Positions 3,407-62,585 of a stretch of 62,585 nt of DNA are shown here, one piece after another. Origin of the DNA: a virus. Taxonomy: Duplodnaviria > Caudoviricetes. Location: the IMG/VR virus record IMGVR_UViG_3300031787_000115, positions 1 through 62,585 of that record; one strand, written 5' to 3'. Both the position numbers and the translations under genes were made by a program. The notes under the pieces were generated by a model, which did not search any database, had not been told where the DNA came from, and saw only the letters and a list, made by a program, of their open reading frames with translations. Positions within the stretch are counted from its first letter, which is position 1, and each line of letters opens with the position of its first letter.

Positions 3407-4007
3407 GCCGGGTCCTGGCCTCCGCGTCGTCGTTGGGGTAGGCCTCCAGGATCCGCGCCATGCCCTCCCCCGGCCCCCAGCCAGCCGTCTGCCAGTGCTC
3501 CAGCAGGAGGGTTGACAGGCGGCGGCTCAGGTCCGGGCCATCGAACTGCGAGAGCTTGACCGCGACGTCGGGCAAGACGAGATACCCGGCGAACAGCTCC
3601 ACGAAGTCGCCGAAGCACAAGGGGTCAACCGGGTGATCCGGGTGGGGCAACCAGACGGCATCGGTCAGCCACTCCGGCTGCACACCGTGGCTGGAGTAGG
3701 GCCCGTACTCCTCGATGCAGCGGGCTTCACCCTGGGTCTGCCAGCGCCAGATCGCGGCGTTGAGGGCTGACAGAGCCTCGAACAGCATCAGCCCCGGGCG
3801 GGTAACCTTGGCGTTCCGCAGGTGGCTGAGCTGGCTGCTGCCGAGGAACCCGGACTCGCGCAGAGCCCAGTCGGTGATGGCCGCCACCTGGTCATGTGAG
3901 AGGCCCGCGCGGCCGAGCCAGGTGTTCACCACGGCTGCCATGTGGCTCCTTCCGCGATCGTGGCGGCGACTGGGGATCTGACGATCCAGGTCGGGGGCAG
4001 GGCCCAT
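3243..4007 (-). CDS. Putative XRE-like HTH transcriptional regulator (repressor candidate)
   Basis: GLSHDQVAAIT..SSQLSHLRNAKVTRPG resembles an XRE HTH; the longer ORF-track start runs through the non-coding array; start uncertain. Confidence 0.55.
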   Translation of the reverse strand: MGPAPDLDRQIPSRRHDRGRSHMAAVVNTWLGRAGLSHDQVAAITDWALRESGFLGSSQLSHLRNAKVTRPGLMLFEALSALNAAIWRWQTQGEARCIEEYGPYSSHGVQPEWLTDAVWLPHPDHPVDPLCFGDFVELFAGYLVLPDVAVKLSQFDGPDLSRRLSTLLLEHWQTAGWGPGEGMARILEAYPNDDAEARTRLTMLCLGQMDWTSEEFEAEIPDLAALVECLRSLPTGSYGPAELHAELTSGRRRA

Positions 4008-4039
4008 GGGGCGGTGGTTGGTGGTGGTGCCCGCACGGT

Positions 4040-4729
4040 AGCCGGATGGGGCCGGAAGATCCCAGAACGGTGCGGGGTGGTGCAGAACGGTGCAGAGTGC
4101 TGCGTGGGGCGGTTCGGTTGCCAAACGAAAGCCCCGGGGGTGCCGGGTCGGTGGTGGCCGGAAGGCCCTGTGCGGTGAGTCGCGGCGGGCGGCGATGCGC
4201 AGCGGAGCATGGCTGGGGGGAGCAATGCGGAGCAAAGCGGTGCGATGCGCCGGTGGTGGGTCAACCCACCGGAGAGGAGCCCTCAGCGGTGGGGTGTGGG
4301 GCCTCGATTGAGGCCCCCCGTGGTGTGCGTTGCGTCGAGCGGCGCAGGGACGCTGGGCGCAGAGTGGCGGTGAGAAGCAAAGCGCAGCACGGCGGCGCGG
4401 AGTGGTGGGCATCAGCCCACCGTCAGACCATAGGTCGGAGGGTGGGTTGTGGGCCCCGTGAGGGGCCCCTGTGGTGTGCGTTGCGCTGCGCGGCTCAGCG
4501 AAGCGGCGCGATCGTGGCGAGGCGCGGCGTCGTGGTGAGTCACCCCACCAGGCAGCCGGTGGCTGCGGGCTGGGGTGGGCGGGCCCCCGGAGGGCCCCCC
4601 TGTGGAGTGCGTCGCAAGGCAAGGCGTCGCGCGGCGCGGTGTCGCAGGGCATTGAGACGGGGCGCGGGGCATTGAGACGGGGCGCGGGGCGCGGCGGCCT
4701 GGGGCTTACACCTGACGGATGCCCAGGCC
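4040..4729 (-). ncRNA. Array of hairpin-delimited pentamer-repeat cassettes (candidate guide RNAs, locus 1)
   Basis: Four complete ~130-150-nt units plus one partial; in-phase tracts at 4172-4251, 4327-4401, 4478-4531, 4609-4698 (plus strand GNR-NN); partly shared flanks GTGGTGTGCG and GTGGTGGG-N4-5-CCCACC; GC hairpins. Confidence 0.75.
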
Positions 4730-4730
4730 A

Positions 4731-5246
4731 TCAGCTCCCCTCCAGCTTCGGCGCCTGCTTGCCGGCACGCTTCAACAGCCGGAGCTGCTTCTGTGCGCCC
4801 TGGGCCGAGGCCGCGATGAAACTGTGAACGTTGATCCTGTTCTGGTGCTCCCGCCGGGCGGCACCGGTGAGCTTCGATTCGTCAACCGCGTTGACCAGTC
4901 GGCCAGTGGCCCGCTGGTGACGACGCAGGCCAGAGAAGGCCTGATCGTTCAGGTAGGCGCTCGCCTTGTCATCGGTCAGCACGTTGATGCAACCACCGGA
5001 GGTGTTCATCACCAGCGGCGGCAGCCCCGCTTGGTTGCGGTCGCGCTCCAGCCACTGGATCACCCGCTGCAACACAAGCGACAGGCGGGCCGCCTTCGCG
5101 GTCTCCTCGTCACCGTGCTGGGTCAGCCAGCCCTGGTAGGTCTCTTGCCGGCGGGTGATGAAGTAGGTCCACGCCTGATCGGCGGGGATGGTCTGTCCCT
5201 TGTAGAGGGACATGGCATCGATCGATGCAATCCTGGGGCTCGACAT
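4731..5246 (-). CDS. Accessory protein of Cas7-like locus 1 (unknown function)
   Basis: ATG overlaps the TGA of the upstream Cas7-like gene (TGATG); 171 aa, basic C-terminus. Confidence 0.8.
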   Translation of the reverse strand: MSSPRIASIDAMSLYKGQTIPADQAWTYFITRRQETYQGWLTQHGDEETAKAARLSLVLQRVIQWLERDRNQAGLPPLVMNTSGGCINVLTDDKASAYLNDQAFSGLRRHQRATGRLVNAVDESKLTGAARREHQNRINVHSFIAASAQGAQKQLRLLKRAGKQAPKLEGS

Positions 5247-5875
5247 CAGGCCACCTCCACTTCGTCGAGCCGGGTGACGCTGAAACGGCCATTGGCGGGC
5301 CGCCAGGTGCCGAGGCCTTCGGCAATACCGGCGCGGTCGATGATCTTCGCCAGCGTCGTGGGATCGATGATCTCGTCGTTGACGAGGAGGTTGTAGGTCG
5401 CGCTCCACTGGGGCAGCCGGAGCCTGACGGCAACGACACCACGGCCGGTGGGGGCGACGGACACGAAGCGCGGATCTTCGTACATCAGCTCCGCATCACG
5501 GGGCCCGTCGTAGATCAGCTCCGCGTCGTTCTCGACGACGATGGCCCGCTTGGTGTCTTTGCCGAGCTTCCAGGCGGTAGCGCCGTCGCGGATGCAACGC
5601 TGCAGATTGTGGGCAGGCAGAAATGGATCGGAGAAACCGCGGAACTTGGAGTCACCATCCAGGGCAGGACCGTAGACGAACTCTCCCTCGGTGCCCCAGT
5701 AGCCGGAGAACAACCACTTGAGCCGGCGGAGTGCGTGTTCGTTGCGGTTCTTCTTGAGGCTGGTGAAGTAGTCGGTAGCGGCTTTGTGGATCCCGAGGGG
5801 ATCCATCTCGCAGGGGTTGCCGAAGATCAGAGGGCGGGTGCCCTGGATCGTCAGCTCGAAACGGCGGAAGGCCAT
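5246..5875 (-). CDS. Stand-alone Cas7/RAMP-like protein (locus 1)
   Basis: N-terminal FELTIQGTRPLIF strand, central PFLPAHNLQRCIRDGA helix, C-terminal glycine loop AGIAEGLGTWRPANGRFSV; 209 aa. Confidence 0.72.
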   Translation of the reverse strand: MAFRRFELTIQGTRPLIFGNPCEMDPLGIHKAATDYFTSLKKNRNEHALRRLKWLFSGYWGTEGEFVYGPALDGDSKFRGFSDPFLPAHNLQRCIRDGATAWKLGKDTKRAIVVENDAELIYDGPRDAELMYEDPRFVSVAPTGRGVVAVRLRLPQWSATYNLLVNDEIIDPTTLAKIIDRAGIAEGLGTWRPANGRFSVTRLDEVEVA

Positions 5876-57427: not shown

Positions 57428-57754
57428 TCAGCGGCCGGGGCCGTGGGCGGCCCAGAGCTGGGCCATGTCGCGGCGGTACTCGGCCTCCTCGCGATCGGCG
57501 GCCTCCTCGTCGAAGGGCTCGCTGATCGTGATGACGAACGGCGCTCCGTCGGCGATGAACAGGGCGCCCATCTGCAGGACGTCGCTGTCGTCGGCGCAGT
57601 CTTCAAACGCCTCGGAGGCGAACTGAAAGCGCGACTGCAGCTCGTCCTCCACCGCCTCGCCCGTCTCAATGACGGCGCAGAGGTGGTGATCGAGGAGGTC
57701 GTCGAGGTCGGTGATGGCCTCGACGGCGAGGGCGGGAGCGGTGAGGGTGGCCAT
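57428..57754 (-). CDS. Acidic hypothetical protein
   Basis: First gene after the TATAGT promoter at ~57800. Confidence 0.65.
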   Translation of the reverse strand: MATLTAPALAVEAITDLDDLLDHHLCAVIETGEAVEDELQSRFQFASEAFEDCADDSDVLQMGALFIADGAPFVITISEPFDEEAADREEAEYRRDMAQLWAAHGPGR

Positions 57755-57852
57755 GGTTCGTGGCGGGTGGTGGTGCGCGGGGGGTTGCCCCATGACCGAA
57801 CTATAGCCGCTTCCAATGCCAATGGCGATCGCTTTACGAAAGTTCGCGGCAA

Positions 57853-58425
57853 TCAGCGGATCGACCAGGACCGGCCCGTCACCAGCTCCGCCCCCGGCAC
57901 GGCCTGCCCAGCCTTGAGGGCGGCCTTCAGCGCGGTCTTGTCCGGCGCGTAGGTCCGCCGCTCGCGGAGGAACTCCGGCGGCAGCTCGGCATCCGGGTCG
58001 ATCGCCACACTCTCGGTGCGGCGGCTGGTGAGCTCATGCGCCGGCAGGCTCCAGCGGGTGGCGTCGGGATCGATGCCGGCCAGGGCGGCCAGCAACCGCT
58101 CCTGCAGGGCGTCAGCCCGGCGGGCGTCCACGTCGGCCAGGTCGCGCAGGCGGTCGCTCTCGGCCCGTCGGTAGGCGGCCTGAGCCCGCAGCTGGGCGAT
58201 CACCCAGCAGTAGGCGTCAGCCTTGCGCTGCAGGGCCTCGCGATTGCCGGCCTCGCTCAGCAGCAGGGCCTCGAGGGCGCCAGCGGTGTCGGTGTTGAGG
58301 TCACCATCCTCGGTGTGCAGGCCTTCGGCCAGTTCACTGATCTGCCGCTGCAGGGCCATGGCCTCACCGGCCAGGGCGAACAGGGAGGGCGCCGGGGCCT
58401 CGACGGGAAGGGGGGTGGTGGTCAT
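57853..58425 (-). CDS. Siphovirus Gp157-like protein
   Basis: KADAYCWVI..AESDRL..LPPEFL..PDKTALKAALKAGQAVPGAEL. Confidence 0.85.
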   Translation of the reverse strand: MTTTPLPVEAPAPSLFALAGEAMALQRQISELAEGLHTEDGDLNTDTAGALEALLLSEAGNREALQRKADAYCWVIAQLRAQAAYRRAESDRLRDLADVDARRADALQERLLAALAGIDPDATRWSLPAHELTSRRTESVAIDPDAELPPEFLRERRTYAPDKTALKAALKAGQAVPGAELVTGRSWSIR

Positions 58426-58453
58426 GGGTCTGCGGTGGTGGGATGCGCTCCGG

Positions 58454-58481
58454 TTGCCAACTGGAAGCGCCTATGTACGAT
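58454..58481 (+). promoter_or_regulatory. Putative promoter of Cas7-like locus 2, with operator palindrome
   Basis: TTGCCA-16 nt-TACGAT; TGCC-AACT-GGAA at 58455-58466. Confidence 0.55.
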
Positions 58482-58544
58482 AGCGGCGCCATCGGGCCCG
58501 GCTCGATGGACTTGGCACGGCTCCTGACCCACGAACCACCATGA

Positions 58545-59192
58545 ATGGCCACCACCACCGCGAAGAAGACCGCCGCCACTGAAGAGATCGTCGTCATCCA
58601 GGCGCCGGACTTCCGCCTGCTTGAGCTGGAGATCGAGGGCACCAGCCCCCTTGTCATCAACCGCTTCAGCGCCAAGGCGATCGAGATGATGCGGGCGACC
58701 CAGGAAGCCGGCAGCACCGCCAAGAGCAAGAAGGCCCGGGAGCCGAAGGACTTTGATGCCCTGTTTGAGAACGCCAAGCACGTCAGCGAGGACGGCTGGG
58801 AGGGCATCCATGCCGCCGCGTTTCGCAACGGGGCGATCAGCGCCTGCCGGGCCTGCGGCTTCAAGATGACCCACGCGAAGCTGGCGTTCAGCGTTCACGC
58901 CGACGGTTACGACAGGGTGGACGGTGCCCCGCTGGTGCGACTGACCCACGGGACCGCGGAGCAGTACGTAGCCCCCACCAGGAACGCGACCGGCGTTGTA
59001 GACCTGCGCTGCCGCCCCATGTATCGCCGCTGGGGCGCCAATCTGCGCATCAAGTACGACGCGGGGATGTTGACGGCGGCCGACGTGACCAATCTGATCG
59101 TCAGGGTCGGTCTTCAGGTCGGCATCGGTGAAGGTCGGCCCGACTCAAAAGCCAGCGCGGGCCTAGGTTTTGGGCTCTTTTCCGTCATTTGA
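58545..59192 (+). CDS. Stand-alone Cas7/RAMP-like protein (locus 2)
   Basis: LELEIEGTSPLVINRF strand, GIHAAAFRNGAISA helix, DLRCRPMY..W, glycine loop VGLQVGIGEGRP..GLGFGLF. Confidence 0.75.
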   Translation: MATTTAKKTAATEEIVVIQAPDFRLLELEIEGTSPLVINRFSAKAIEMMRATQEAGSTAKSKKAREPKDFDALFENAKHVSEDGWEGIHAAAFRNGAISACRACGFKMTHAKLAFSVHADGYDRVDGAPLVRLTHGTAEQYVAPTRNATGVVDLRCRPMYRRWGANLRIKYDAGMLTAADVTNLIVRVGLQVGIGEGRPDSKASAGLGFGLFSVI

Positions 59193-59219
59193 TCAGCGGT
59201 TCCCCTACCACTGATCCCC

Positions 59220-61047
59220 AGGGCGCCGCTGACCCCGGCGCCCTTTTCGCAGGCAAGGCAACGAATTGACGGCTCGGTAGGCGGGGCAACGCCGGCGAGG
59301 CTTGATAGGCGCGCCGATGCTGCGCTGCCCATGGCAGGAGTCGCAAGGCCTGCCCTGGATCGGAAACGCAAGCCTGGGAGCGGCTGGCATGGAGTGGATC
59401 GACAGCACAGCGCGGGGACAGGCCGGCCAGGCAATGCGCCGCCCGGTAGGTGGGGCGTGGTCGGCATGGCGGGCTAGGCGTCGTCGGGCTCGTCACGGCA
59501 TCGATCGGCTGGCATGGTGTGGCGCGCTCAGTAGCGATGGGATGGGCACGGCCGACATGGCCTCGATGGCTCGGAACCCGTGGCGCTGGTGGGCGCGGCC
59601 GGCATGGCGTGGCGACGGATCGAGCGCTGAGGCACTGCGGGCCAGGACTGGCATGGTTGGCATGGAATCGCTGGCTCCGCAAGGTGAGGCTAGGTGCCGA
59701 AAGGCGCCGAACCGCTGGCGTGGTCACACCAGGGAGGCAGGGCGATGCACGGCCGGCAACGCGACGCGTGGCATGGCACTTCAGGGCCGGCAAGGCGAGG
59801 GATCCGAGGCTTGCCTGGGCCTGGGTCGGCACGGCCGGCAGGGCGACGCGAGTGGTGGGCTGGGGGGCCTGGCACCGGATGGCACGGGACGGCAGGAGAG
59901 ACCTGGCACGACCCCGCACGACGGGGCCCGGTGCGGGTTGGCGCGGGACGGCAGGCACGGCGTGATGCGGATTCTCAGAGCAGGGGACGGCGGGGCCTGG
60001 CCGGCGCGAAATGGACGGCGCGGCCCGGGACCATTGGCTCGAGGCGGCAGGGCTGGCGCGGCACGTCTAGGTAGGCGTCGGCGGGCACGGCGGGCACGGC
60101 GTGTCATGGGTCGGTTCTCCCTGGCGTGGCCGGCATGGGTGGCAGGGCGCCGCTTGGCACGGCCTGGGCTGGCCGGCAGGGCAGCGCGCCGCTTGGCGGG
60201 GCACGATCCGGCTGGCAGCGCAGCGTGTGGCATGGCTCCACTTGTTTGGGCCAGGCCGGCATCGCAGCGCCTGGCATGGCTCCGCTCATGGCGGCCCGGC
60301 TGGCAGCGCTCGGTAGGCAAGGCGTGGACGGGATCGGGTTGGCAGGCCTGGCGAGGACTATCACGGTCCGCAAAGGCAAGACGAGGCAGGGCAGGCATGG
60401 ATGGGCCCGATGCGGATGCGATTGGCTGCGCAGGCATGGCAAGGCTTCCCCTGGGCTGGCGCGGTTCGACGCGGCTGGCAAGGCGAGGCAAGCCCAGCAG
60501 GGTGAGGGATGGCACGGCGTGACCACGGGCACGACCACGGCACGGCTGGTCAGGCCTGGCCAGAACGGATTGATGCGGAGAGGCAGGCATGGCAAGGGAG
60601 GCCCGCCGGGGACCAGCTCGACCGGACGCGGCAGGCTTGGCACGGCATGGCTAGGTGCAGCAGCGAGCGGCCGGCTCGCCGAGGTATGGCCCCGACTGGC
60701 GCCGCTGGGACCGCAGGCATGGTCTGGGTCGGAGCGCGCGGAGCGCATGGCTGGCACGGCGCACCCCCGCATGACAGGGCTAGGTCGGTCGGCCTGGCTG
60801 GCACGGCAGCGAAGACGCGGCGCGGGTTGGAGGGGCAGGCACGGATGGGCGTGGACCCCGTGATGGGGCACGGCTGGCATGGAGCGCCCAGGTCTGGGAT
60901 GGAGCGGCAGGTAAGGCGTGGCGAGACCCGGTGCGGCATGGCTGGCGTGGCCTGCCAGCGACTGACGAGGAGACGACCGGTGCGGCCGGCAAGGCGCGTC
61001 CGTTGCCGCTTTGAACCGCAAGCGGCATCCTGACCCTGGCAGGGTCA
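59220..61047 (+). ncRNA. ~1.75-kb GGC-NN pentamer array (candidate guide RNA array, locus 2)
   Basis: 5-nt periodic GGCNN-like units punctuated every ~35-55 nt by a 4-nt (G/C)GC(A/T/C) unit; hairpins at 59220-59244, 61004-61027, 61031-61047; six-frame ORFs are low-complexity. Confidence 0.8.
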
Positions 61048-61068
61048 CCATCACCCACCCTGATTCCC

Positions 61069-61626
61069 ATGCAGAACGAGTACGTCTACAGCGACCCGAC
61101 CGCCGAAGCGCAGTACGGGGTTAATGCCCAGACCGCCGGTGAGGAGCTGGCTCGCATCAAGGCCCAGCACCGCATCCTCGGGCCGGCCACCGTCGTCGAG
61201 GAATCCCGCCCCGAGGAAGCCCCGCTTCACCCGGTGTTCGAGTGGCGCGATCCGGTGGCGGCTGAGCAATGGCGCGAGCACCAGGCCAGCCAACTGATCC
61301 GGCGGGTGCGGGTGGTGCCGATGGAGGCGATGGAGCCCGAACTGCCCCGGGCGCCGCGGGTGCAGATGCCGGCGCCGGAGCCGCTGGAGCTGACTGAGCA
61401 CGATCCGCTGGTGTGGGAACTGGATCAGGCCGTCGCCGCGTTGCAGAAGGCGAAGGACCAGGTGTCAGCCCTGAAGGAGAAAGCCGCCCGCCGCTTCGAT
61501 CGGCGCCGGCAGATCCAGGCGGGTGTGGCCCTGTCGGACCTGGAGCAGGCCGATGATCTGCTGGAGGATGCCCGCGAAACCCTGACCGCCAGCCGCAAGA
61601 CTGCGAACTGGGCCGAGGCGGTCTGA
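61069..61626 (+). CDS. Accessory protein of Cas7-like locus 2 (conserved phage hypothetical)
   Basis: AQTAGEELARI..PATVVEESRPEEAPLHPVFEWRDPVAAEQWREHQASQLI. Confidence 0.8.
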   Translation: MQNEYVYSDPTAEAQYGVNAQTAGEELARIKAQHRILGPATVVEESRPEEAPLHPVFEWRDPVAAEQWREHQASQLIRRVRVVPMEAMEPELPRAPRVQMPAPEPLELTEHDPLVWELDQAVAALQKAKDQVSALKEKAARRFDRRRQIQAGVALSDLEQADDLLEDARETLTASRKTANWAEAV

Positions 61627-61642
61627 GGCCAGGCAAGCAGAC

Positions 61643-61670
61643 GAAAGCCCCGGTGATGAGCCGGGGCTTT
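61643..61670. terminator. Bidirectional terminator between convergent genes
   Basis: AAAGCCCCGG-TGATGAG-CCGGGGCTTT. Confidence 0.75.
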
Positions 61671-61677
61671 GCTGTGG

Positions 61678-61941
61678 TCAGTGGGGCAGCTTGTCGGCCA
61701 TCGCCTGCAGCTGCTGGAGGGTGGCCAGGATGTCGAGGCATATCTGGCGATCGGCTGCGGGGATGTCGCGGACGTGGCCCAGCATCCGCATCTCCAGCAC
61801 AACCTCACAGGAGGAGTCCCGCAGGGCCTCCCGGATGTTGTGCGCGACGTCGGCCATGGACAGATGGCCGCAGAACGGATCGAACGGGTAGGGCTCGGGC
61901 AGCGCAAGGGTGCCGGCAGCGCCGGAGGGGGTGACGGTCAT
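61678..61941 (-). CDS. Hypothetical protein
   Basis: Protein-like ORF ending at the terminator. Confidence 0.6.
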   Translation of the reverse strand: MTVTPSGAAGTLALPEPYPFDPFCGHLSMADVAHNIREALRDSSCEVVLEMRMLGHVRDIPAADRQICLDILATLQQLQAMADKLPH

Positions 61942-62165
61942 GGTGATTCCTGGTCTGTATGTGATCGGCATCGCTACCGACGGGCCCACCATAAGCATGC
62001 GAGGTTGCCGCTGGTCAACCCCCACACAAGGCGAAGGGCCACCCGAGGGCAGCCCTTCGGCCCTACTGGGCCTCCGATACGGTTTCAGAGCGCGCACACA
62101 GAACCACGCTCACCGCGTCCATCCTTGCGGGTAGGACCGACCCGGCACAGGCAGGCTACCTGGCC

Positions 62166-62378
62166 TCAGTGCAGCAGACCCCGGCGATGCAGCTCCTCGC
62201 GGTAGGCCTCGTCGTGGCCGGCCTGGTAGATGCGCTGCAGGTGGTCGCGGTCCAGGAGGGCCAGGCGGAGCTGCTGGCGGCGCAGGCGGCTGTCGATGTG
62301 CCCACTCACATCCCAGGCGGTGCGGCCGGCATCGAGGGCGGCGCAGAGCGAAAGCCAGCAACGGCGGAGGAGTCGCAT
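62166..62378 (-). CDS. Hypothetical protein
   Basis: First gene after the TAGGAT promoter in the terminal overlap. Confidence 0.6.
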   Translation of the reverse strand: MRLLRRCWLSLCAALDAGRTAWDVSGHIDSRLRRQQLRLALLDRDHLQRIYQAGHDEAYREELHRRGLLH

Positions 62379-62585
62379 GGTGGTGTTGGTGGTGCCGGCT
62401 GATCCTAGTGGTGCTGCTTCCATTTGGAAACGCGAGCAGAGTGACGGACGCTACGGCCTGGCGCGAGGGCCTGGCGCAGGGTGGCGGGGAGAGCGGCAGC
62501 CCGGGGCAACCCGGGCCTTTCCTCAGCTCAGCAGGGTGGCCAGGCCGACCGCCAGCAGATGGGCGGCGAGGTTGGAGAGGCTGCG
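62339..62585 (+). repeat. Terminal direct repeat / circularisation overlap, copy 2
   Basis: Matches 1-247 with 2 mismatches. Confidence 0.97.

What the first reader, a model, noticed from the sequence alone, without database searches (positions are those of the whole stretch)
58545..61626. Candidate RNA-guided system, locus 2: lone Cas7/RAMP-like gene + 1.75-kb GGC-NN pentamer array + accessory gene
SEEN: 59249-61000 has no credible gene. It parses into 5-nt units with a semi-constant GGC-like triplet and two free bases, e.g. cgca|ggcat|ggcaa|ggctt|cccct|gggct|ggcgc|ggttc|gacgc|ggct|ggcaa. A 4-nt unit (GGCA/GGCT/GGCC/CGCA) resets the phase roughly every 7-10 pentamers, giving about 40 different segments by eye. 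The array is bracketed by hairpins, sits between two co-oriented genes, follows a promoter at 58454 and precedes a terminator at 61643. KNOWN: an N-terminal strand like IEGTSPL plus a C-terminal glycine loop (VGIGEGRP..GFGLF) is the RAMP/Cas7 signature, and Cas7 filaments bind RNA with fixed periodicity. There are no cas1/cas2/cas3 genes or classical CRISPR repeats in the genome. INFERENCE: each subunit binds one pentamer, the triplet is the handle and the NN bases spell a gapped target. From memory this matches the recently reported phage VIPR systems (GGY/NN RNAs); I cannot verify that here.
Basis: partly seen in the sequence, partly recalled or inferred. Interest (0 to 1): 0.95.

Follow-up and report, generated by a model that had tools for sequence, protein, structure and literature searches.

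The report
Phage VIPR locus, giant guide array
A phage genome carries a VIPR system, the recently described CRISPR-like weapon of phages: a small RNA-binding protein, a 1.8-kb run of five-letter GGC-plus-two units that should encode its guide RNAs, and a helper gene; it is a large new example of a known kind.

Summary
Window 59251-60998 is a strand-specific tract of 5-nt GGY-NN units: lag-5 autocorrelation is 0.435 against about 0.22-0.28 at neighbouring lags. The phase is reset almost always by a 4-nt unit.

In 53 related loci with enough sequence, the same order holds: vipr, then a GGY-NN array, then a homologue of the downstream gene. The phase-minus-one grammar is also shared (616 of 680 phase steps).

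This matches the VIPR systems published as preprints in 2026, specifically their "staggered arrays with 1-nt overlapping vrRNAs".

Three things are particular here:
- The array is the longest of the 54 loci compared (1879-nt spacer, about 65 segments).
- It conforms less well to GGY than most relatives (0.53 against a median of 0.71) and has variable junction letters.
- The same 62.6-kb temperate phage carries a second, SUSP1-like VIPR locus at about 4050-5875.

No natural target was found above chance.

The parts
58454..58481 (+). sigma-70-like promoter candidate upstream of vipr (TTGCCA, 16 nt, TACGAT)
   Evidence: 1 site found, against 0.1 expected in shuffles. This is a consensus match only; function is not shown.
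58545..59192 (+). vipr: 215-aa minimal RAMP (RRM core, beta-hairpin thumb at about 138-160, glycine-rich loop 189-210)
59220..59249 (+). 9-bp GC hairpin followed by UUUUC, between vipr and the array (terminator-like or a processing/attenuation element)
   Evidence: -26.5 kcal/mol, z -4.35, 0 of 200 shuffles fold as well. Its role is inferred.
59251..60998 (+). staggered vrRNA array: about 65 in-phase runs of GGY-NN pentamers (289 units) joined by 4-nt units
   Evidence: No Rfam family. No Pfam hit for the ORFs crossing it. No nucleotide homology to the arrays of relatives, although both flanking genes have it.
61069..61626 (+). vap-like accessory gene, 185 aa: conserved N-terminal helical domain (motif PLHPxFEWxD), a linker, and a C-terminal helical hairpin
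   Evidence: phrog_15946, E 5.4e-16. 166 homologues. Found downstream of vipr in 58 of 75 loci. AF2 pLDDT 84.4. No informative fold match. Function unknown.
61637..61675 (+). strong hairpin after the accessory gene, the likely end of the unit
   Evidence: -25 kcal/mol, z -3.52. Not called as a terminator by the consensus scan.

Best explanation
This is a VIPR (Viral Interference Programmable Repeat) system of the staggered-array kind, carried by a temperate siphovirus-like phage whose relatives occur in Synechococcaceae-type metagenome bins.

Proposed mechanism, by homology with the SUSP1 system:
1. The + strand of 59251-60998 is transcribed and cut, or used, as many short vrRNAs.
2. Vipr protomers polymerise on each vrRNA, one per pentamer. 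They bury the GGY triplet and present the NN bases.
3. The filament binds double-stranded DNA whose sequence reads NN-x-NN-x (one skipped base per two read) and silences transcription. The target is most likely a competing phage, prophage or satellite.
4. The downstream gene is the accessory (vap) partner.

What is shown here: the repeat grammar, the RAMP fold, the homology to a solved Vipr, and the conserved three-part locus. What is inferred: transcription, processing at the 4-nt junctions, the skip rule and the targets.
For: Protein.
- AF2 model with pLDDT 94.2.
- The 30 Foldseek rows printed are type III Csm/Cmr or type VII effector entries, E down to 3e-5 (43 matches at E <= 0.001).
- A profile of 91 family members hits exactly one PDB sequence at E <= 10, 'SUSP1 Vipr protein' 36pp_D, at E 2.2e-6.
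- In that alignment three GGY-contacting residues of SUSP1 have counterparts: R138 with R157, D177 with E196, R179 with R198.

RNA part.
- Period-5 GGY-NN tract, strand specific and far above shuffles.

Conservation of the locus.
- 58 of 68 IMG/VR loci have a period-5 tract by the vipr homologue.
- 58 of 75 loci have the accessory homologue downstream.
- In the 53 other loci with a spacer of at least 150 nt, 616 of 680 phase steps are minus one, against 58 of 62 here.
- Clean relatives show units of 39-65 nt ending YGC-A-GGC.
- The array sequence itself is not conserved (2 weak blastn hits), while vipr aligns in 63 loci and vap in 15. That is expected of guide arrays.

Context.
- Terminase, portal, tape measure, tail fibre and integrase are present.
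- The record is a virus record with CheckV completeness 100 and no Cas1 or Cas2.

Literature.
- The definition of VIPR, the YNNGG caller with at least 4 units, the seven types, and staggered arrays with 1-nt overlap.
- The structural basis of one protomer per repeat.
Against:
- No natural target above chance. Local searches of 641 kb equal the shuffled controls. Two exact scans of IMG/VR gave 0 hits. One guide gave an 18-of-20 match in 6 of 301 genomes, at about the number expected by chance. Another gave 0 of 301 while its control gave 2.
- Only 154 of 289 in-phase units are exact GGY. That is 0.53, against a median of 0.71 in relatives. Many segments have only 1-3 units, too short to guide on their own.
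- The residue that stacks on G2 in SUSP1 (W178) is an invariant glycine in this clade.
- There is no conserved 3' tail of the kind type II vrRNAs have.
- A terminator-like hairpin lies between vipr and the array.
- According to the text I read, the staggered architecture was not among those confirmed by sRNA-seq.
Confidence: 0.87

Rival explanations
1. The locus is a VIPR system, but much of this particular 1.8-kb array is not a set of working guides. It would be a partly decayed pile of old units, or a decoy/sponge RNA that soaks up Vipr proteins (its own or a competitor's). Only a minority of well-formed segments would guide.
For: GGY conformity is 0.53, against a median of 0.71 in 53 relatives, and the median segment is 4 units. 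32 of 66 segments have 1-3 units. Junction letters vary (T16, C16, A11, G5), whereas 242 of 282 junctions across all the loci (3 of them the window's own) are A. No target was found. Decoy use of vrRNAs by satellites is reported (abstract of 10.64898/2026.10.15.759431).
Against: The closest relatives (82-84% Vipr identity) also have long arrays of short segments, with conformity 0.54-0.71, so the style is inherited and maintained. The minus-one phase grammar is kept in 58 of 62 steps, which random decay by indels would erode. [quoted passage not shown]
Confidence: 0.1
2. The tract acts as DNA and not as RNA: for example G-rich repeats serving as protein-binding iterons, a recombination or packaging signal, or G-quadruplex-forming DNA.
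For: The + strand is 44% G (768 of 1752). There is no transcript evidence.
Against: The tract always lies beside a RAMP-fold RNA-binding protein homologous to a protein solved in complex with just such an RNA. A fixed triplet with two free bases is the vrRNA grammar. In Mycobacterium phage Quico the array lies upstream of vipr rather than downstream, yet on the same strand.
Confidence: 0.02
3. The tract is protein coding (ORFs of up to 406 aa cross it).
For: ORFs 59302-60522 (+, 406 aa) and 60104-61054 (-, 316 aa) are open.
Against: Periodicity is 5, not 3. 0 of 5 ORFs hit Pfam. At about 70-73% G+C, long chance ORFs are expected (composition; the expectation is my inference). The tract has no conserved sequence in relatives whose flanking genes are conserved.
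Confidence: 0.01

Closest known systems
VIPR systems with staggered vrRNA arrays (bioRxiv 10.64898/2026.04.26.720920, fig. S18 legend)
   Same: A minimal RAMP gene plus an accessory gene. GGY-NN pentamers. Successive vrRNA registers offset so that one nucleotide is shared, which appears here as a 4-nt unit or minus-one phase step (58 of 62 steps). No conserved tail and no ribozymes. Viral genome.
   Different: I could read only the legend, not the figure or the tables. I therefore cannot say which of the seven types this clade is, or whether it is among the 667 systems listed. This array is the longest of the 54 loci I compared (1879-nt spacer; the next is 1075). It is less regular, and its junction letter is not fixed.
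SUSP1 / Pseudomonas fulva type II VIPR (characterised experimentally; PDB 36pp)
   Same: Homologous Vipr (profile E 2.2e-6). The G-loop motif G-x-G-[DE]-x-R-P and the thumb arginine are kept. GGY-NN units. An accessory gene. Phage-borne.
   Different: Type II vrRNAs are about 100 nt, with 9-16 repeats and an invariant 3' tail with a pseudoknot, and SUSP1 has four of them. Here there is no tail, and there are dozens of segments of 1-11 units. SUSP1 W178 is a glycine here. The accessory protein shows no detectable relation to anything solved.
Class 1 CRISPR backbone subunits (Cas7 family: Csm3, Cmr4, type VII Cas7)
   Different: No Cas7 profile of NCBIfam or Pfam matches. There is no cas1 or cas2 and no repeat-spacer array. 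The period is 5 nt with 2 read bases, not 6 nt with 5 read bases. The preprint places Vipr outside all CRISPR RAMPs.

Membership tests
VIPR | Glycine-rich loop | tested here: met
   In residues 189-210, G189, G197, R198 and G210 are invariant. G193, G206 and G208 are kept in at least 90% of 91 sequences. The stretch is a loop in the model.
VIPR | Thumb domain carrying the arginine that contacts G2 | tested here: inconclusive
   A beta-hairpin at 138-146/152-160 is present in the model. R157 aligns with SUSP1 R138 and is kept in at least 90% of the family. I did not superpose the model on a Vipr structure; the Foldseek copy of the PDB ends 2026-04-08 and returned none.
VIPR | Sequence homology to an experimentally characterised Vipr | tested here: met
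   A profile of 91 sequences hits only 36pp_D, 'SUSP1 Vipr protein', at E 2.2e-6. The single sequence gives E 0.12.
VIPR | GGY-reading residues of SUSP1 (R138, D177, W178, R179) | tested here: inconclusive
   Three of four have counterparts (R157, E196, R198). W178 aligns with the invariant G197. The arrays of this clade are nevertheless GGC-rich.
VIPR | Adjacent tandem YNNGG (= GGYNN) repeats, at least 4 units | tested here: met
   289 in-phase units, of which 154 are exact GGY. Runs reach 11 units. Spacing-5 count is 74, against 10.8 in shuffles.
VIPR | Minimal locus: vipr plus an accessory gene, with no other cas genes and no CRISPR array | tested here: met
   The two genes flank the array. 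Cas1 and Cas2 profiles give 0 matches in the record, with positive controls ringing. TRF finds no repeat-spacer array in the locus. I did not scan for cas3.
VIPR | Viral or proviral context | tested here: met
   Terminase, portal, tape measure, tail fibre and integrase are present. The record is classed as a virus record, completeness 100.
VIPR | vrRNAs are expressed and bound by Vipr | not testable with these tools
VIPR | Targets follow the 1-nt skip rule (NN-x) | tested here: inconclusive
   The skip-1 rule is no better than skips 0, 2 or 3 or shuffled guides in 641 kb. Exact IMG/VR scans gave 0 hits. Host-family genomes gave chance-level hits.
VIPR, staggered-array architecture | Successive vrRNAs overlap by 1 nt, the end of one marking the start of the next | tested here: met
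   58 of 62 phase steps are minus one here, and 616 of 680 in 53 relatives. The 5th letter of the terminal unit is G in 273 of 282 guides. Where the RNA is actually processed is not known.
VIPR type II (SUSP1-like) architecture | Invariant 3' tail after each repeat tract | tested here: not met
   There is no repeated non-pentamer element in the array. TRF finds only short local repeats, and the HMM leaves only 29-nt and 12-nt background stretches inside the array. So this locus is not type II-like. The other VIPR locus of this phage does have such tails.
CRISPR-Cas | Adaptation genes cas1/cas2 and a repeat-spacer array | tested here: not met

The most novel reading that the evidence does not exclude
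In this subclade the frequent 4-nt units may not be vrRNA boundaries. They could be in-guide punctuation, with the array used as long, multi-register RNAs on which Vipr filaments continue across GGY-N units. That would give a mixed 5/4-nt code, with a correspondingly irregular gapped target, or many very short cooperative guides. It would be a variant of the published fixed NN-x rule. It would also explain why segments of only 1-3 units are kept with the phase grammar intact, why the junction letter is free here, and why fixed-rule target searches find nothing.
Probability: 0.1. Interest if true: 0.7.

Novelty: new member of a known kind. Interest (0 to 1): 0.42.

Why it matters
VIPR is a months-old discovery, and only its type II has been dissected. 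According to the text I could read, the staggered architecture seen here was described but was not among those confirmed by small-RNA sequencing. How such arrays are transcribed and cut, and what length of guide works, is therefore open.

This locus and its relatives give that question material:
- A family of at least 2282 clusters at 50% identity.
- A clear phase-minus-one grammar shared by 54 loci.
- An extreme case with about 65 segments.
- Homologues with the same arrays in cultured phages: Cyanophage Cy-LDV1, and 27 Mycobacterium and 5 Gordonia phage records, all annotated 'hypothetical protein'. These would be tractable in Mycobacterium smegmatis.

One phage carrying two VIPR systems with different repeat grammars (GGC-NN without tails; NGC-NN with tails) is also a natural test of whether Vipr proteins discriminate between their own and foreign vrRNAs.

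Tried and rejected
Protein coding. Rejected: no lag-3 signal and no Pfam hit for 5 ORFs.

Known RNA family or hammerhead-interspersed array. No Rfam match at E <= 1 in 57500-62585.

Targets.
- 18 window guides of at least 7 units were searched against the window plus 70 loci (641 kb). Best matches equal those of shuffled guides, and no skip rule stands out.
- 215 unique guides from all loci: matches at 0.9 or better number 2, 5, 3 and 2 for skips 0-3, against 1 for shuffles. There is one perfect 14-of-14 match, where about 1 is expected by my estimate.
- With the junction unit added the signal falls to 1, against 0.
- Exact IMG/VR scans of an 11-unit and a 9-unit guide gave 0 and 0 hits.
- In 301 genomes of the family of a Synechococcaceae bin, a 10-unit guide with up to 2 mismatches hit one site in 6 genomes, with 0 hits for the control. 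The site is in frame in a ribosome-recycling-factor-like gene. About 2 chance hits are expected by my estimate, and both mismatches fall on glycine codons kept in all six matched genes, so I treat this as chance.
- A 12-unit guide with up to 3 mismatches gave 0 of 301, while its control gave 2.

NN versus GGY substitution rates among five close arrays. NN is only modestly higher (for example 0.27 against 0.19) and equal in the closest pairs. The MAFFT alignment of such repeats is unreliable, so I leave this out as evidence.

Papers.
- 10.64898/2026.04.26.720920: outline and abstract, all of Results, Methods sections 18 and 20, and passages including the legends of figs S17-S22.
- 10.64898/2026.04.26.720927: outline and abstract, sections 5 and 6.
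- 10.64898/2026.10.15.759431: outline and abstract, plus passages.
- 10.64898/2026.10.21.760802: passages only.
- I saw no figures and no supplementary tables. Those tables (the lists of the 667 systems, their types and vap classes) could show that this clade is already typed.
Full report
WHAT IS THERE

The window is a whole virus record of 62,585 bases, completeness 100 by the collection's estimate. It carries a terminase, portal, tape measure, tail fibre, integrase, helicase and a replication initiator, so it is a temperate siphovirus-like phage.

At 58545-59192 lies a 215-codon gene. It is followed by 1879 nt without a credible gene, and then by a 185-codon gene at 61069-61626 on the same strand.

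THE OBSERVATION

The intergenic tract has a strong 5-nt period.
- Identity at lag 5 is 0.435, against 0.22-0.28 at lags 1-3 and 6-8.
- Secondary peaks at 9/10, 14/15 and 19/20 show that the phase slips by one.
- Lag 3 is flat, whereas both flanking genes peak at lag 3.
- It is the only long tract of this kind in the window.
- GGY triplets follow each other at 5 nt 74 times and at 4 nt 48 times. Shuffles give 10.8 and 10.8 on average, and at most 19 and 18. The opposite strand gives 4 and 4.

A phase HMM splits 59251-60998 into 66 in-phase runs holding 289 pentamers. Of these, 154 are exact GGY, and the two free positions use all 16 dinucleotides. Of 62 adjacent phase changes, 58 are minus one.

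The promoter-like site at 58454 is found. The hairpins after vipr and after the second gene are real (z -4.35 and -3.5). The hairpin at the 3' end of the array is not significant.

THE PROTEIN

No Pfam or NCBIfam model matches. A PHROG of unknown function does (phrog_4652, E 5.5e-15).

The family is very large:
- 4269 proteins at E <= 0.001 among 4630 candidates in the 90%-clustered collection.
- 2282 clusters at 50% identity.

I aligned the window protein with 90 of the 150 listed representatives, choosing those close to full length. The results were:
- The profile hits one PDB sequence only, the SUSP1 Vipr protein (36pp_D), at E 2.2e-6. The single sequence already picks it as its sole hit, at E 0.12.
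- The AlphaFold model is confident (pLDDT 94.2, pTM 0.86).
- Foldseek puts type III Csm/Cmr (Csm3-type chains) and type VII effector entries on top, at E 3e-5.

The glycine-rich loop (189-210) holds the invariant residues of the family. In the alignment to SUSP1 Vipr, the residues that the structural preprint names as reading the GGY triplet map as follows: R138 to R157, D177 to E196, R179 to R198, and W178 to an invariant glycine.

THE LOCUS IN RELATIVES

- Of 68 IMG/VR loci encoding a relative, 58 have a period-5 tract next to the gene. Seven of the other ten are cut by the contig end within 230 nt of the gene, and two have the second gene directly after vipr.
- Over 75 loci (68 viral, 4 from genome bins, 2 cultured phages, and the window), 58 have a homologue of the downstream gene after vipr. 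The median spacer is 471 nt. The window's 1879 nt is the longest, and the next is 1075.
- In the 53 other loci with a spacer of at least 150 nt, 616 of 680 phase steps are minus one.
- Clean arrays, such as L058, resolve into 14 units of 39-65 nt. Each is a run of GGC-NN that ends in YGC, then A, then the next GGC.
- Across all the loci together (283 guides parsed, 282 scored, 3 of them the window's own) the junction letter is A in 242 of 282. In the window it is T16, C16, A11, G5.
- The array sequence has no nucleotide homology to any relative's array (two weak hits). The vipr gene aligns in 63 loci and the second gene in 15.

The same protein and the same kind of array occur in cultured phages:
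- Cyanophage Cy-LDV1 has vipr, a 224-nt array and the second gene in that order.
- Mycobacterium phage Quico has the array upstream of vipr.
- The nearest genome-bin hit is a Synechococcaceae MAG, at 82% identity.

COMPARISON WITH WHAT IS KNOWN

Three preprints of 2026 describe VIPR systems. According to the parts I read:
- A system consists of a minimal RAMP (Vipr), an accessory gene (vap) and vrRNAs made of GGY/NN repeats.
- Most systems lie in viruses and proviruses.
- DNA is recognised through the NN bases, with one target base skipped per repeat.
- There are seven types.
- Besides type II arrays with tails, there are 'staggered arrays with overlapping vrRNAs', whose legend says that vrRNAs derive from positions overlapping by 1 nt.
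- One protomer binds one repeat.
- A fourth preprint finds 99 period-5 clusters of VIPR-like arrays.

Every defining feature that I could test is met: RAMP fold, G-loop, homology to a solved Vipr, GGYNN repeats of at least 4 units, a minimal locus without cas1 or cas2, and viral context. The minus-one phase step is just what a 1-nt overlap of two GGYNN registers gives. I therefore file the locus as a member of VIPR of the staggered kind. It is not type II, because it has no tails.

I could not see the figures or tables. The type number, and whether this clade is already listed, remain open.

MECHANISM, AND HOW FAR IT IS SHOWN

Shown here: the grammar, the fold, the homology and the conserved architecture.

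Inferred from SUSP1: transcription of the + strand, one Vipr per pentamer, NN-x pairing to double-stranded DNA, silencing of rival mobile elements, and a helper role for the second gene.

Points against a simple reading:
- Only 53% of units are exact GGY, against a median of 71% in relatives.
- Half of the segments have 1-3 units.
- A terminator-like hairpin separates vipr from the array.
- The W that stacks on G2 in SUSP1 is absent.
- I found no target above chance.

The closest relatives share the long, short-segment style, so it is inherited and not an accident of this genome.

THE ACCESSORY PROTEIN

The second gene has 166 homologues and a PHROG of unknown function. The model has a conserved N-terminal helical domain, a disordered linker and a long C-terminal helical hairpin (pLDDT 84.4). 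Fold searches were uninformative and the Atlas gives viral hypothetical clusters. Its role is unknown. I cannot assign it to one of vap1-6.

VERDICT

The system is already known, so this is a new and extreme member, not a new kind. Its main value is as material for the untested staggered architecture. The two-system phage is also a natural test of cross-talk between VIPR systems.

Noticed in passing
window 4050-5875: A second VIPR locus lies in the same phage. A 209-aa ORF at 5246-5875 (-) hits the SUSP1 Vipr protein directly at E 1.9e-10, with a G-loop GLGTWRP, and is only weakly similar to the locus-2 Vipr (E 2e-4). At about 4150-4650 there are period-5 tracts of NGC-NN units read on the + strand, separated by three copies of a conserved element spaced 151 and 131 nt apart that contains hairpin-forming stretches. 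This looks like tailed, type II-like vrRNAs with a YNNNG-type repeat. The strand and boundaries were judged by eye only.
   Followed up: partly
window 62065-62160: A noncoding stretch of about 95 nt is conserved at 76-85% identity in 8 related loci, where it lies several kb upstream of vipr instead of downstream. It has no Rfam match. It could be an attachment site or a small RNA.
   Followed up: no
window 60344-60397 against L076-L081: The 10-unit guide read by the NN-x rule matches 18 of 20 positions in a ribosome-recycling-factor-like gene (motif LGLTPNNDG) in 6 of 301 genomes of a Synechococcaceae-bin family. The match is in frame, with the skipped base on codon position 3, and the control gave 0 hits. 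By my estimate about 2 such hits are expected by chance, and both mismatches fall on conserved glycine codons, so this is a lead only.
   Followed up: partly
L069 (Cyanophage Cy-LDV1, 3977-5409) and L070 (Mycobacterium phage Quico, 2600-4058): Cultured phages carry the same vipr, staggered GGC-NN arrays and the accessory gene, all annotated 'hypothetical protein'. In total 33 phage records match: 27 Mycobacterium, 5 Gordonia and 1 cyanophage. In Quico the array is upstream of vipr, close to the repressor/Cro/antirepressor module.
   Followed up: partly
window 59220-59249: A terminator-like hairpin (9 GC-rich pairs followed by UUUUC) lies between the vipr stop codon and the first pentamers. The array may therefore be expressed by read-through or from its own start site.
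   Followed up: no
L010 about 3006 (inside its accessory gene), guide from L042 1457-1495: This is the only perfect NN-x match (14 of 14) among 215 guides searched against 641 kb. It falls in the accessory gene of another phage's VIPR locus. It drops to 15 of 16 when the junction unit is added. About one such hit is expected by chance.
   Followed up: partly
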